Source: Escherichia coli
GTDB lineage: Bacteria > Pseudomonadota > Gammaproteobacteria > Enterobacterales > Enterobacteriaceae
DNA length: 64,000 nucleotides
Direction: 5' to 3' (one strand)
Assembly: GCF_016026235.1 (NCBI RefSeq)
Contig: NZ_CP065613.1
In this document: in pieces, positions 32,370 to 58,150 of the stretch
How positions within the stretch are numbered: position 1 is the stretch's first letter
Layout: every line of letters starts with the position of its first letter
Position numbers and translations under genes: made by a program
The notes under the pieces: generated by a model
Told to the model about the DNA's origin: nothing
Seen by the model: the letters and a program-made list of their open reading frames with translations, nothing else
Databases searched by the model: none

Positions 32370-33470
32370 ATGCAAAACTGGATAAAGGCCGCCGTTATCG
32401 CCGTAAGCCTGGCGCTGCCCGGCGTGGCGCTGGCACAATCGCTGGAGTCGCTGGTCAACGTACAGGGCGTGCGTGAAAACCAACTGGTCGGCTACAGCCT
32501 GGTGGTCGGCCTCGACGGCACCGGTGATAAAAACCAGGTCAAATTCACCAACCAGACCATCACCAATATGCTGCGCCAGTTCGGCGTGCAATTGCCGAAT
32601 AAAATCGACCCGAAGGTGAAAAACGTCGCCGCAGTGGCGGTGAGCGCCACGTTGCCGCCGATGTACTCGCGCGGGCAGACCATTGATGTCACCGTCTCGT
32701 CGATTGGCGATGCGAAAAGTATTCGCGGCGGCACCTTGTTGCTGACCCAGCTTCACGGCGCGGATGGCGAAGTGTATGCCCTGGCGCAGGGCTGCGTGGT
32801 GGTCGGCGGGATGAACGCCACCGGGGCCAGCGGTTCCAGCGTGACGGTTAACACACCGACCGCTGGGTTAATTCCCAACGGCGCGACGGTGGAGCGCGAG
32901 ATCCCCAGCGATTTTCAGATGGGCGATACCATCACGCTTAACCTGAAACGCCCGTCATTTAAAGACGCCAACAATATTGCGGCGGCGATTAACGCCTCGT
33001 TTGGCGGCATTGCCACGGCGCAGAGTTCCACCAACGTTACCGTGCGCGCGCCCACCAGCCCCGGCGCGCGGGTGGCGTTTATGTCGCAACTGGATGATGT
33101 GCAGGTGCAGGCGGAGAAAATCCGCGCCCGCGTGGTGTTTAACTCGCGTACCGGTACGGTGGTGATGGGCGATGGCGTTGCGCTACATGCGGCGGCGGTG
33201 TCTCACGGCAGTCTGACCGTCTCGATTAACGAAACCAGCAACGTCAGCCAGCCGAATGCCTTTGCGGGCGGGCGCACGGCGGTAACGCCGCAGAGCAATA
33301 TCGCGGTGAATCATGCGCGCCCGGGCGTGGTGAGTTTGCCGGAGTCGAGCAGCCTGAAAACGCTGGTCAATGCGTTGAACAGTTTGGGCGCGACGCCGGA
33401 CGACATTATGTCGATTTTACAGGCGTTGCATGAAGCGGGCGCACTGGATGCTGACCTGGAGGTGATCTGA
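32370..33470 (+). CDS. lfgI: lateral flagellar P-ring protein, FlgI family
   Basis: Start ATG 32370 after GGAGAG; signal peptide [22 protein letters not shown]. Confidence 0.9.
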
Positions 33471-55233: not shown

Positions 55234-56487
55234 ATGCTGGAACAAATGGGCATTGCCGCGAAGCAAGCCTCGTATAAATTAGCGCAACTCTCCAGCCGCG
55301 AAAAAAATCGCGTGCTGGAAAAAATCGCCGATGAACTGGAAGCACAAAGCGAAATCATCCTCAACGCTAACACCCAGGATGTTGCTGACGCGCGAGCCAA
55401 TGGTCTTAGCGAAGCGATGCTTGACCGTCTGGCACTGACGCCCGCACGGCTGAAAGGCATTGCCGACGATGTACGTCAGGTGTGCAACCTCGCCGATCCA
55501 GTGGGGCAGGTAATCGATGGCGGCGTACTGGACAGCGGCCTGCGTCTTGAGCGTCGTCGCGTACCGCTGGGGGTTATTGGCGTGATTTATGAAGCGCGCC
55601 CGAACGTGACGGTTGATGTCGCTTCGCTGTGCCTGAAAACCGGTAATGCGGTGATCCTGCGTGGTGGCAAAGAAACCTGTCGCACTAACGCGGCAACGGT
55701 GGCGGTGATTCAGGACGCCCTGAAATCCTGTGGCTTACCGGCGGGTGCCGTGCAGGCGATTGATAATCCTGACCGTGCGCTGGTCAGTGAAATGCTGCGT
55801 ATGGATAAATACATCGACATGCTGATCCCGCGCGGCGGGGCTGGTTTGCATAAACTGTGCCGCGAACAGTCGACGATCCCGGTGATCACAGGTGGTATAG
55901 GCGTATGCCATATTTACGTTGATGAAAGTGCAGAGATCGCTGAAGCATTAAAAGTGATCGTCAACGCCAAAACTCAGCGTCCGAGCACATGTAATACGGT
56001 AGAAACGTTGCTGGTGAATAAAAACATCGCCGATAGCTTCCTGCCCGTATTAAGCAAACAAATGGCGGAAAGCGGCGTGACATTACACGCAGATGCAGCT
56101 GCGCTGACACAGTTGCAGGCAGGCCCCGCGAAGGTGGTGGCGGTTAAAGCCGAAGAGTATGACGATGAGTTTCTGTCATTAGATTTGAACGTCAAAATCG
56201 TCAGCGATCTTGACGATGCCATCGCCCATATTCGTGAACACGGCACGCAACACTCCGATGCGATCCTGACCCGCGATATGCGCAACGCCCAGCGTTTTGT
56301 TAACGAAGTGGATTCGTCCGCTGTTTACGTTAACGCCTCTACGCGTTTTACCGACGGCGGCCAGTTTGGACTGGGTGCGGAAGTGGCGGTAAGCACACAA
56401 AAACTGCACGCACGTGGCCCAATGGGGCTGGAAGCACTGACCACTTACAAGTGGATCGGCATTGGTGATTACACCATTCGTGCGTAA
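55234..56487 (+). CDS. proA: gamma-glutamyl phosphate reductase
   Basis: 417-aa aldehyde-dehydrogenase-family ORF directly after proB. Confidence 0.95.
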
Positions 56488-56601
56488 ATAAAACCGGGTG
56501 ATGCAAAAGTAGCCATTTGATTCACAAGGCCATTGACGCATCGCCCGGTTAGTTTTAACCTTGTCCACCGTGATTCACGTTCGTGAACATGTCCTTTCAG
56601 G

Positions 56602-56677
56602 GCCGATATAGCTCAGTTGGTAGAGCAGCGCATTCGTAATGCGAAGGTCGTAGGTTCGACTCCTATTATCGGCACCA
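56602..56677 (+). tRNA. thrW: tRNA-Thr (anticodon CGU)
   Basis: 76-nt sequence GCCGATATAGCTCAGTTGGTAGAGCAGCGCATTCGTAATGCG...GGCACCA with cloverleaf features and anticodon CGT. Confidence 0.95.
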
Positions 56678-56803
56678 TTTAAATCAAGTAGTTACCCCAT
56701 ATTTAAATACACCACGTTTCCTCCTGTGCCGTATTTGTGCCATTGTAACCCTGGCAATTAATCAAAATACTGTTCTGACATCAGGCAATGCAGGTGCAGA
56801 CAT

Positions 56804-57214
56804 TTAAGCCAATTGCTGCCGCCATTCCTTGACGTGGTCAATCAGGGCGCGGAGCTTTGGTGCAATATTGCGACGCTGTGGGAAATACAGATAGAAGCCC
56901 GGAAATTGTGGAAGAAAGTCATCAAGCAGAGATACAAGCCTACCGCTTTCAATATATGGCCTGAAAGTTTCCTGAGTGGCAATTGTTATTCCTCCGCCGG
57001 CAAGAGCCAGCCTCAACATCAGACGCAGATCATTAGTCGTAATCTGTGGTTCAATCGCAAGGTCGAAAGTTCTCCCGTTTTCTTCAAATGGCCAGCGATA
57101 AGGCGCAACCTCCGGGGACTGACGCCAGCCGATACACTTATGGGTATTTCCCCCGGAGGTGAGAAAGCGCTTTCCACGCCCGGCCGCAAGGATCAGGACG
57201 ACGGGGGCAGGCAT
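56804..57214 (-). pseudogene. yagP: LysR-family regulator fragment (C-terminal substrate-binding domain only)
   Basis: 136 codons from MPAPVV...; LysR C-terminal motifs (LRLALAGGGITIATQ...SGRLVSLLDDFLPQFPGFYLYFPQRR); no N-terminal HTH domain. Confidence 0.5.
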
Positions 57215-58150
57215 GAATCCTCCTCCTGATGGAGACGTACAGAGGCGACTTCTGCCAGCACGGAGAGTGCCAGAGTATGCGCATCCCGGGCTTTGGGGAA
57301 TATCCCGACGGGTGCCCGAATTTGCGCTGTCTCCTCCCTGGACCATCCCAGCTCGTGGAGCTTTTGCAGACGTAACGTGTGGGTTCGATAGCTGCCCAAT
57401 GCGCCGAGATAAAAGGGTTTTGCTTCTCGCGCGGCCTGCAACACTGGCAGCTCCCGGTTGAGATCATGGCACAGCAAAATGACCGCCGTATCGGTATCGA
57501 TCTGAGCGCTGGCTGAGGCCGGAAAAAGATCGAAGATATGGCTGTCATAGCCTGTGGCTGCTGCAAGACTCGCGGTTGCCTGCGCCTCAAGAGAACGTCC
57601 GTAAATCATCAGCCTGACGCATGGCCTGAACCCCACCTCAAAGCCATTGAGATTCCAGCCACGTTCGGGTTTGCGTGGGCAGGCACACCAACGATTGTGC
57701 TTGCGGATCGTAGCGCAGCCCCGCCGGTTTTCTCTGTTCCAGGCGGTTCAGCACGGCGAGCAGAGGCTGTGCCGAGCGTAGTTTATGGAGCGTCAGCGTG
57801 ATCCCACCGCCGCAGGGCAGAACGATGTCAAACCACGGCGAACCTTCGCCATAGCGAATTTCGCGATCGCAGCCTGAGCCCATCATCTCCAGCGCTTCAA
57901 AAGCGGCAGCGGCCTCCACGCAGCCGCCAGAGACAAAACCGCAGTAACGACCATCTTCGCGCACCACCATCTGCGCCCCGAGCGGGCGCGCCGCGCCGCC
58001 GCGTATCTCCACCAGCGTCACCAGCACCGCTCCTTTACCGGACATTAGCGCCTCTACGGCGAAGCGCAGAATGGTCCGGTGGTCATCGGTGAGAAACGCC
58101 TGCTCTGGCTTATGCCAGTGTTCGTCTTTATCAAAAAGCGGGTATGACAT
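57193..58150 (-). pseudogene. paoD: XdhC-family molybdenum cofactor insertion chaperone, apparently frameshifted
   Basis: N-domain ORF (57638-58150) and C-domain ORF (57193-57636) are adjacent in different frames; together they make one XdhC/CoxI-like protein. Confidence 0.6.

What the first reader, a model, noticed from the sequence alone, without database searches (positions are those of the whole stretch)
56678..57214. thrW tRNA attachment site unoccupied, yet the neighbouring LysR-type gene is already a fragment
thrW is followed within ~125 bp by a LysR-family C-terminal fragment and then the pao operon; no integrase or prophage genes intervene, in contrast to genomes carrying a prophage at this tRNA. 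The LysR gene lacks its DNA-binding N-terminus even in this empty configuration. That suggests a past integration and excision at this site, or an ancestral truncation predating prophage acquisition.
Basis: partly seen in the sequence, partly recalled or inferred. Interest (0 to 1): 0.4.

Follow-up and report, generated by a model that had tools for sequence, protein, structure and literature searches.

The report
Empty thrW site beside deletion-truncated yagP pseudogene
The LysR gene fragment next to the empty thrW phage-attachment site in this E. coli is the known yagP pseudogene, and it lost its front half to a 6.1-kb deletion on the side facing the pao operon, not to any phage coming or going at thrW, so the finding is real but ordinary.

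Summary
thrW (56602-56677) has a single, unoccupied att core. 126 bp later, on the minus strand, comes the 3' end of a LysR gene that lacks its DNA-binding half, and then paoDCBA.

The phage-based interpretation does not hold. The missing 5' half would lie on the paoD side, away from thrW. O157:H7 and O145:H28 genomes carry the full 299-aa gene at the same spot. Compared with them, this window, E. coli B/C and K-12 share one identical 6,134-bp deletion joined at a 5-bp microhomology (CATAA, 57138-57142).

Occupancy of thrW and truncation vary independently across 5,426 complete genomes:
- empty and truncated: 768
- occupied and truncated: about 1,887
- empty and full-length: 39
- occupied and full-length: about 351

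Two smaller results came out of the work. The annotated 136-aa "yagP" ORF is a chimera. Its first 24-26 codons are the start of a lost MocA-like gene that follows paoD in relatives, fused in frame to LysR residues 188-299. Also, the 68 bp after thrW are a relic of the 3' end of a P22/SfX-type integrase gene. This relic is present in every E. coli configuration examined, so it marks an old integration unrelated to the truncation.

Verdict: already-annotated pseudogene, low interest.

The parts
56602..56677 (+). thrW, tRNA-Thr(CGT)
   Evidence: ARAGORN. RefSeq annotates tRNA-Thr at the same place in strain C and BL21(DE3).
56632..56677 (+). 46-bp att core (ATTCGTAATGCGAAGGTCGTAGGTTCGACTCCTATTATCGGCACCA) used by SfI/SfII/SfV/SfX/P22-type integrases. 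Present as a single copy, so the attB is unoccupied.
   Evidence: 46/46 identical to the HK542 and SfX attP. The core sequence is published in PMC3636060. There is only one copy of the thrW 3' end in the window.
56678..56745 (-). Relic of the 3' end of a P22/SfX-family integrase gene, read here as an attL-type scar. 56692-56745 correspond to the stop codon and last 17 codons (NGTNTAQEE...). The frame is broken by a 1-nt deletion. Homology ends abruptly at 56745/56746.
   Evidence: 60/68 identical (plus 1 gap) to the HK542 and SfX attP-int region, and 66/68 to the longer int' pseudogene beside thrW in strain H105. The Int tail is conserved in P22-family integrases from several host genera.
56746..56803 (.). 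58-bp chromosomal spacer downstream of the yagP stop codon
   Evidence: It matches the genome with empty thrW and full-length LysR (O145, 44/45 over 56746-56790) and the K-12 attR flank (42/45), but not the phages.
56804..57142 (-). LysR-derived part of the yagP pseudogene: residues 188-299 of a 299-aa LysR regulator, plus the stop codon
   Evidence: Codon-by-codon comparison with the O157:H7 full-length gene shows 4 synonymous and 2 non-synonymous differences. Pfam LysR_substrate positions 104-207 of 209 only. NCBIfam best model is YafC, positions 186-292 of 293.
57138..57142 (.). Deletion junction: 5-bp microhomology CATAA (TTATG on the + strand) joining the paoD-downstream gene stub to LysR codon 188
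   Evidence: The blastn alignments to the two O157 flanks overlap at 57138-57142. The sequences of both O157 flanks and of the window are laid out. The deletion measures 6,134 bp in L006 coordinates.
57143..57214 (-). First 24 codons (26 counting the microhomology) of a lost MocA/MobA-like NTP_transf_3 gene. Its ATG at 57214 overlaps the paoD stop by 22 nt and is preceded by AGGAGG.
   Evidence: In relatives (L091, L092) a 184-187-aa NTP_transf_3 gene follows paoD with the same overlap. Its N-terminus is MPAPVVLILAAGRGERFLTSGGSTHKL, 24/26 identical to the window.
56804..57214 (-). Chimeric 136-aa ORF, the 'yagP' of older K-12 annotation: MocA-like codons 1-24/26 fused in frame to LysR 188-299
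   Evidence: Translation, alignment. Many E. coli carry frameshifted 64-65-aa versions of it.
57193..58150 (-). paoD (XdhC-family Moco chaperone). In this window it is split into two ORFs by one extra base at 57661.
   Evidence: ORF list. Base-by-base comparison with strain C. No complete genome among 3,597 matches shares the extra base; the best identity is 99.9% with one gap.

Best explanation
The region 56678-57214 is the unoccupied thrW attB followed by the yagP pseudogene. Both are the product of ordinary genome decay.

Some E. coli (for example O157:H7 and O145:H28) carry, next to thrW, a complete 299-aa LysR regulator transcribed divergently from an SDR oxidoreductase gene. After that come a small hypothetical gene, a ykgR fragment, a second LysR gene, an alpha/beta hydrolase, an MFS transporter, and then the 3' end of paoABCD.

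In the lineage that includes this window, E. coli B, C and K-12, one illegitimate recombination event between two CATAA pentamers deleted 6,134 bp. One pentamer lay in the stub of a MocA-like gene just after paoD. The other lay at LysR codons 188-189. The deletion removed LysR codons 1-187 (the HTH and half of the effector domain) and all the genes in between. It fused the 24-26 codon stub in frame to LysR residues 188-299.

The product has no DNA-binding domain and cannot act as a LysR regulator. It is a pseudogene, possibly still translated by coupling to paoD. Integration and loss of elements at thrW went on independently on both gene backgrounds.

Steps shown: breakpoints, microhomology, gene content, distribution across genomes. 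Steps inferred: the direction of the change (deletion rather than insertion) and that it happened once.
For: - Full-length gene at the same position: it has HTH_1 plus LysR_substrate domains, with divergent SDR and the other genes up to paoD, in O157:H7 and O145:H28.
- Breakpoints: window 57138 maps to L006 13626 and window 57142 maps to L006 19756. CATAA is present on both sides.
- Retained part: residues 188-299, joined in frame.
- The full-length form is the original one: collinear 297-299-aa homologues at 83-90% identity occur in Pantoea, Kosakonia, Phytobacter and Atlantibacter.
- Same junction in a K-12-like genome that carries CP4-6. MG1655 and BW25113 stop matching the O157 probe at the same breakpoint.
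- Counts in 5,426 genomes: the junction is in 2,655, of which 768 have thrW empty. The gene is intact across the breakpoint in 390, of which 39 have thrW empty. In all, 947 genomes have thrW contiguous with the yagP 3' end.
- A second, independent deletion of 2,049 bp also removes the yagP 5' part and the SDR gene in strain LR-58-2.
- Origin of the stub.
- Signs of decay: frameshifted ORF variants and the PGAP pseudogene flag.
Against: - No genome of a sister Escherichia species was examined at this site. Polarity therefore rests on the full-length homologues in other genera and on parsimony.
- The left breakpoint lies within about 3 bp of the point where, in O157-type genomes, homology to the MocA-like gene already stops. 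That coincidence is not explained by a simple random deletion.
- The counts are not corrected for phylogeny. The shared junction could have spread by homologous recombination as well as by descent.
Confidence: 0.9

Rival explanations
1. A phage or island once integrated at thrW and its imprecise excision removed the LysR N-terminus.
For: An integrase 3' relic lies between thrW and the gene. thrW is a known integration hotspot.
Against: - The missing part of the gene is at the end far from thrW, and the thrW-proximal end is complete.
- The relic and the spacer match in genomes that keep the full-length gene, whether thrW is empty or occupied.
- The junction partner is the DNA just downstream of paoD, not att or phage DNA.
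- 39 genomes have empty thrW and an intact gene.
Confidence: 0.02
2. The fragment is an artefact of sequencing or assembly, and a full-length LysR gene would appear after correction.
For: The window does contain one probable single-base error or private mutation nearby, in paoD at 57661.
Against: The DNA that would encode residues 1-187 is simply absent, because paoD begins 51 bp beyond the junction. The identical junction is present in 2,655 independently assembled complete genomes.
Confidence: 0.01
3. The K-12/B arrangement is the older one, and O157-type genomes gained the 6.1-kb block by insertion.
For: The block is absent from most genomes that carry yagP: about 2,889 of 3,279 are not intact across the K-12 breakpoint, so at least its yagP end is missing there. 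Its paoD-side boundary is AT-rich and abrupt. The LysR-SDR pair appeared in no other Escherichia species among the best 80 loci of the species-representative scan.
Against: An insertion would have to supply exactly LysR codons 1-187 in frame, to recreate a gene collinear with homologues in other genera. The 5-bp repeat is present at both ends of the block and once in the short form, which is the signature of a deletion.
Confidence: 0.04
4. The 136-aa chimeric ORF is a functional new small protein, for example an effector-binding half-domain co-expressed with the pao operon, rather than a dead remnant.
For: The frame is open across the junction. There is a strong AGGAGG and a 22-nt overlap with the paoD stop, inherited from the lost gene. 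The LysR-derived part shows 4 synonymous against 2 non-synonymous differences from O157.
Against: Only about half of the effector domain remains. Several E. coli lineages carry frameshifted 64-65-aa versions, and others have it fused to paoD as 448-aa proteins, which indicates no purifying selection. No expression data were examined.
Confidence: 0.04

Closest known systems
yagP (b0282) pseudogene of E. coli K-12, next to ptwF/attR of cryptic prophage CP4-6
   Same: Same sequence and the same mocA'::LysR' junction, about 98% identical, contiguous with paoD. PGAP gives the same annotation, 'LysR substrate-binding domain-containing protein, missing N-terminus'.
   Different: In K-12 the gene is separated from thrW by the roughly 34-kb CP4-6 element (size from my own knowledge, not measured here) and lies beside the partial thrW copy. 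Here it sits 126 bp from the intact thrW, as in E. coli B, C and W (PMC3032704).
Full-length LysR-type regulator WP_000687183/WP_000687182 of E. coli O157:H7 and O145:H28, with its divergent SDR oxidoreductase gene
   Same: Same locus next to thrW. Residues 188-299 are 98% identical to the window fragment (110 of 112 residues).
   Different: It has the HTH_1 domain and the whole effector domain, and keeps its divergent partner and five further genes before paoD.
attB/attP of thrW-integrating phages (SfI, SfII, SfV, SfX, P22; lambdoid HK542, HK75, mEp213, mEp043)
   Same: Identical 46-bp core at the thrW 3' end.
   Different: The chromosome also carries 68 bp resembling the phage arm and the integrase 3' end (88% identical). 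It therefore resembles a decayed attL rather than a naive attB. No int gene is present.
MocA (CTP:molybdopterin cytidylyltransferase) / MobA-like NTP_transf_3 genes that follow paoD in other Enterobacterales
   Same: N-terminal 26 residues are 24/26 identical, with the same 22-nt overlap with the paoD stop.
   Different: Only the first 24-26 codons survive in E. coli. No NTP_transf_3 domain is detectable.

Membership tests
LysR-type transcriptional regulator (LTTR) | N-terminal winged helix-turn-helix DNA-binding domain (Pfam HTH_1) | tested here: not met
   No HTH_1 hit in the 136-aa ORF. The O157 full-length orthologue has HTH_1 at residues 5-64. The DNA that would encode it is absent from the window.
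LysR-type transcriptional regulator (LTTR) | Complete C-terminal effector-binding domain (Pfam LysR_substrate, both subdomains) | tested here: not met
   Only profile positions 104-207 of 209 are matched, with E = 7e-15. The orthologue matches positions 4-207.
LysR-type transcriptional regulator (LTTR) | Divergently transcribed target gene next to the regulator | tested here: not met
   The SDR gene is divergent from the full-length gene in O157 and O145. It is deleted in the window.
Unoccupied tRNA-gene attB (thrW) | Intact tRNA gene containing the published 46-bp core, with no second copy of the core and no integrase gene beside it | tested here: met
   The same contiguous arrangement is found in 947 of 5,426 genomes.
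Prophage remnant (attL scar) | Sequence homologous to phage DNA directly next to the core, on the integrase side, with a disrupted reading frame | tested here: met
   60/68 nt identical to HK542 and SfX, ending abruptly at 56745. It covers the last 17 int codons plus the stop, with a 1-nt deletion. The Int tail is native to the P22 family.
Microhomology-mediated (illegitimate) deletion | Short direct repeat at both ends of the long allele and a single copy at the junction of the short allele, with no mobile-element ends | tested here: met
   CATAA lies at L006 ~13622-13626 and 19756-19760, and once at window 57138-57142. No repeats or IS ends lie nearby.
MocA/MobA-like nucleotidyltransferase (Pfam NTP_transf_3) | NTP_transf_3 domain | tested here: not met
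   No Pfam, NCBIfam or PDB hit for the 26-57-aa peptide. Only the N-terminal 24-26 codons remain. Descent from such a gene is shown by identity and synteny.

The most novel reading that the evidence does not exclude
The CATAA site just after paoD may be a recurrent recombination breakpoint, since two different rearrangement junctions fall within about 3 bp of each other. Separately, the resulting MocA(1-26)::LysR(188-299) chimera, which keeps a strong ribosome-binding site and translational coupling to paoD, may be made as a small effector-binding protein with some role in the pao (periplasmic aldehyde oxidoreductase) system in K-12 and B strains.
Probability: 0.04. Interest if true: 0.4.

Novelty: already known. 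Interest (0 to 1): 0.12.

Why it matters
It matters little for biology at large. It removes a tempting but wrong link between a tRNA attachment site and a neighbouring pseudogene. It shows that the thrW flank, the LysR-SDR block and the tail of the pao operon are decaying through small independent deletions. It also gives a precise origin for the K-12/B "yagP" ORF: a fusion of the start of a lost fifth pao-operon gene to the back half of a LysR regulator. That is useful for annotation, and for anyone using the thrW-yagP interval as a neutral or integration site in B, C, W or K-12 strains.

Tried and rejected
- Pfam, NCBIfam and PDB sequence searches with the 26-57-aa N-terminal peptide gave nothing. 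A word-indexed protein search returned only short E. coli ORF variants. The MocA-like origin was established only by looking at what follows paoD in relatives.
- Outgroup state of the thrW flank: the species-representative genome scan with the full-length LysR found no other Escherichia species, and its homologues in other genera are not near a tRNA-Thr.
- Four Citrobacter loci reached through ProA all had thrW occupied by integrases, so none gave an empty site to compare.
- Listing the ProA cluster returned only E. coli.
- The promoter and terminator scan of 56400-57400 found nothing.
- The repeat search around the junction found no IS ends or long repeats.
- Literature searches for yagP found only incidental mentions.
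- The window is not identical to strain C or BL21 outside 56350-57420. Its exact source strain was not pursued.

Full report
**What is at the coordinates**

The window is E. coli chromosome, with gene order ...phoE-proB-proA-thrW-(LysR fragment)-paoD-paoC-paoB-paoA. ARAGORN finds a single tRNA gene in the window, tRNA-Thr(CGT), at 56602-56677 on the + strand. The stretch 56350-57350 is 100% identical to E. coli C, BL21(DE3), REL606 and relatives. Outside that stretch the window differs from strain C at about 0.7% of positions, so it comes from another strain.

On the minus strand an ORF ends at 56804, 126 bp after thrW. Pfam matches it only to positions 104-207 of the 209-position LysR_substrate profile, with no HTH_1. 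PGAP annotates it in C, BL21 and K-12-like genomes as a pseudogene 'missing N-terminus'. No integrase or phage ORF lies between thrW and paoD. The thrW 3' end occurs once in the 64 kb.

**Which end of the gene is missing**

The gene reads from the paoD side towards thrW. Its stop codon and complete C-terminus face thrW. The missing 5' half would lie where paoD now ends. An event at thrW would have had to cross the surviving 3' part in order to remove the 5' part.

**The full-length allele and the deletion**

E. coli O157:H7 carries a 299-aa LysR regulator (HTH_1 at residues 5-64, LysR_substrate at 90-294) at the same place. The order there is:
- paoABCD
- MFS transporter
- alpha/beta hydrolase
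- a second LysR gene
- a ykgR fragment
- a 92-aa hypothetical gene
- an SDR oxidoreductase, divergent from the regulator
- the LysR regulator
- then elements integrated at thrW

O145:H28 RM12581 has the same gene order with thrW empty. There the full-length gene ends 127 bp after thrW.

Aligning the window to O157 gives two blocks that overlap at 57138-57142. Both O157 flanks carry CATAA at the break and the window carries it once. The difference is 6,134 bp. It removes LysR codons 1-187 and all the genes between the regulator and paoD. Residues 188-299 remain and show 4 synonymous and 2 non-synonymous differences from O157.

Full-length collinear homologues at 83-90% amino-acid identity exist in Pantoea, Kosakonia, Phytobacter and Atlantibacter. 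The long form is therefore the original one, and the short form arose by a microhomology-mediated deletion.

**Distribution**

Counts among 5,426 complete E. coli genomes:

| Feature | Genomes |
|---|---|
| Any part of the gene | 3,279 |
| Intact across the breakpoint | 390 |
| ...of which thrW contiguous with the gene (empty) | 39 |
| The fused junction (this window's type) | 2,655 |
| ...of which thrW empty | 768 |
| thrW contiguous with the gene's 3' end, all types | 947 |

K-12-like genomes carrying CP4-6 have exactly the same junction. All four combinations of occupancy and truncation exist. Genomes with the fused junction also differ in where their partial thrW copy starts (window positions 56626, 56629-56633 and 56659-56661), which implies different occupants.

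A second deletion, of 2,049 bp, removes the SDR gene and LysR codons 1 to about 223 in strain LR-58-2, where thrW is empty.

Published comparisons already list thrW as empty in B, W and Crooks and occupied by CP4-6 in K-12 (PMC3032704). thrW is a known integration hotspot (PMC7545054).

**The 5' end of the annotated ORF**

The ATG at 57214 overlaps the paoD stop codon by 22 nt and follows AGGAGG. The first 26 residues are MPAPVVLILAAGRGKRFLTSGGNTHK. Family and structure-sequence searches with so short a peptide found nothing.

In two relatives whose PaoD is 72% and 87% identical to that of E. coli, paoD is followed, with the same overlap, by a 184-187-aa gene carrying the NTP_transf_3 (MobA/MocA-like) domain. 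Its N-terminus is MPAPVVLILAAGRGERFLTSGGSTHKL.

All E. coli genomes examined keep only this stub. In O157-type genomes, homology to that gene stops just after CATAAA and AT-rich DNA follows. The 136-aa 'yagP' ORF is thus an in-frame fusion of that stub to LysR 188-299.

Frameshifted 64-65-aa versions of the ORF, and 448-aa PaoD-LysR fusions, occur in other strains. This argues that the ORF is not under selection.

The older junction in O157-type genomes and the 6.1-kb deletion junction fall within about 3 bp of each other. I cannot explain this (note).

**The spacer after thrW**

Positions 56632-56677 are the published 46-bp att core of SfI, SfII, SfV, SfX and P22 (PMC3636060) and match it 46/46.

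The next 68 bp (56678-56745) are 60/68 identical to the attP-integrase region of lambdoid phages HK542 and SfX, where they contain the last 17 codons and the stop of int. Homology stops abruptly at 56745. In the window the frame is broken by a 1-nt deletion.

The same 68 bp are found in four settings:
- next to the empty site with the full-length gene (O145)
- at the right flank of the occupied sites in K-12 and O157
- as the end of a longer 68-codon int' pseudogene beside thrW in strain H105
- in this window

The C-terminal tail of this integrase is conserved to residue 72 of the last 79 in P22-family integrases of Salmonella, Klebsiella, Enterobacter and Hamiltonella phages. The sequence is therefore native to the phage gene.

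I read this as a scar of an old P22/SfX-type prophage. It is present in all E. coli configurations examined and is unrelated to the LysR truncation. This step is inference. Sister species were not reached.

**Verdict**

The finding is real and correctly located, but ordinary. It is a known, annotated pseudogene beside a known, frequently empty attachment site. The truncation is a deletion on the far side of the gene and owes nothing to phage traffic at thrW. The chimeric origin of the ORF, the integrase relic and the paoD frameshift in this window are minor additions.

Noticed in passing
window 57661 (paoD, minus strand): One extra base relative to strain C, BL21 and every other complete genome splits paoD into 170-aa and 147-aa ORFs. 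The best of 3,597 genome matches is 99.9% with one gap. It is not in a homopolymer run. It is either a private frameshift or a sequencing error.
   Followed up: partly
window 57137-57214 (minus strand); L091 6936-7499; L092 8939-9493: The pao operon had a fifth gene, a MocA/MobA-like NTP_transf_3 gene overlapping the paoD stop codon. It is intact in relatives but reduced to its first 24-26 codons in all E. coli examined.
   Followed up: yes
window 57138-57142; L006 ~13626-13630: Two different rearrangement junctions lie within about 3 bp at the same CATAA(A): the end of MocA-like homology in O157-type genomes and the 6.1-kb deletion in K-12/B-type genomes. This is unexplained. It may be a fragile site or a coincidence.
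   Followed up: partly
window 56678-56745: A 68-bp relic of a P22/SfX-family integrase 3' end lies directly after thrW. It is present in all E. coli configurations examined.
   Followed up: yes
L005 5548-5556 (strain LR-58-2); L006 17815-19864: An independent 2,049-bp deletion, with about 9 bp of overlap at the junction, also removes the SDR gene and the 5' part of the LysR gene. thrW is empty in this strain.
   Followed up: partly
L006 20236 and 33104-33150 (O157:H7 Rafaela_II): Partial thrW copies lie at two places, so at least two elements sit in tandem at thrW in O157:H7. One is a P4-like satellite with its integrase next to a 47-bp copy.
   Followed up: no
proteins P0047-P0053: Some E. 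coli encode 448-aa PaoD-LysR_substrate fusion proteins, probably from a frameshift near the paoD stop that reads into the yagP fragment.
   Followed up: no
L004 4213-4416 (strain H105): In this strain thrW is followed by a 68-codon integrase pseudogene with an internal stop, then a type I restriction-modification island. Strain H105 was not itself checked for pao or yagP, but about a third of genomes lack paoD altogether.
   Followed up: no
L008 19138-19194 (O145:H28 RM12581): paoB is annotated as frameshifted in this genome, which otherwise shows the empty-thrW, full-length-LysR arrangement.
   Followed up: no
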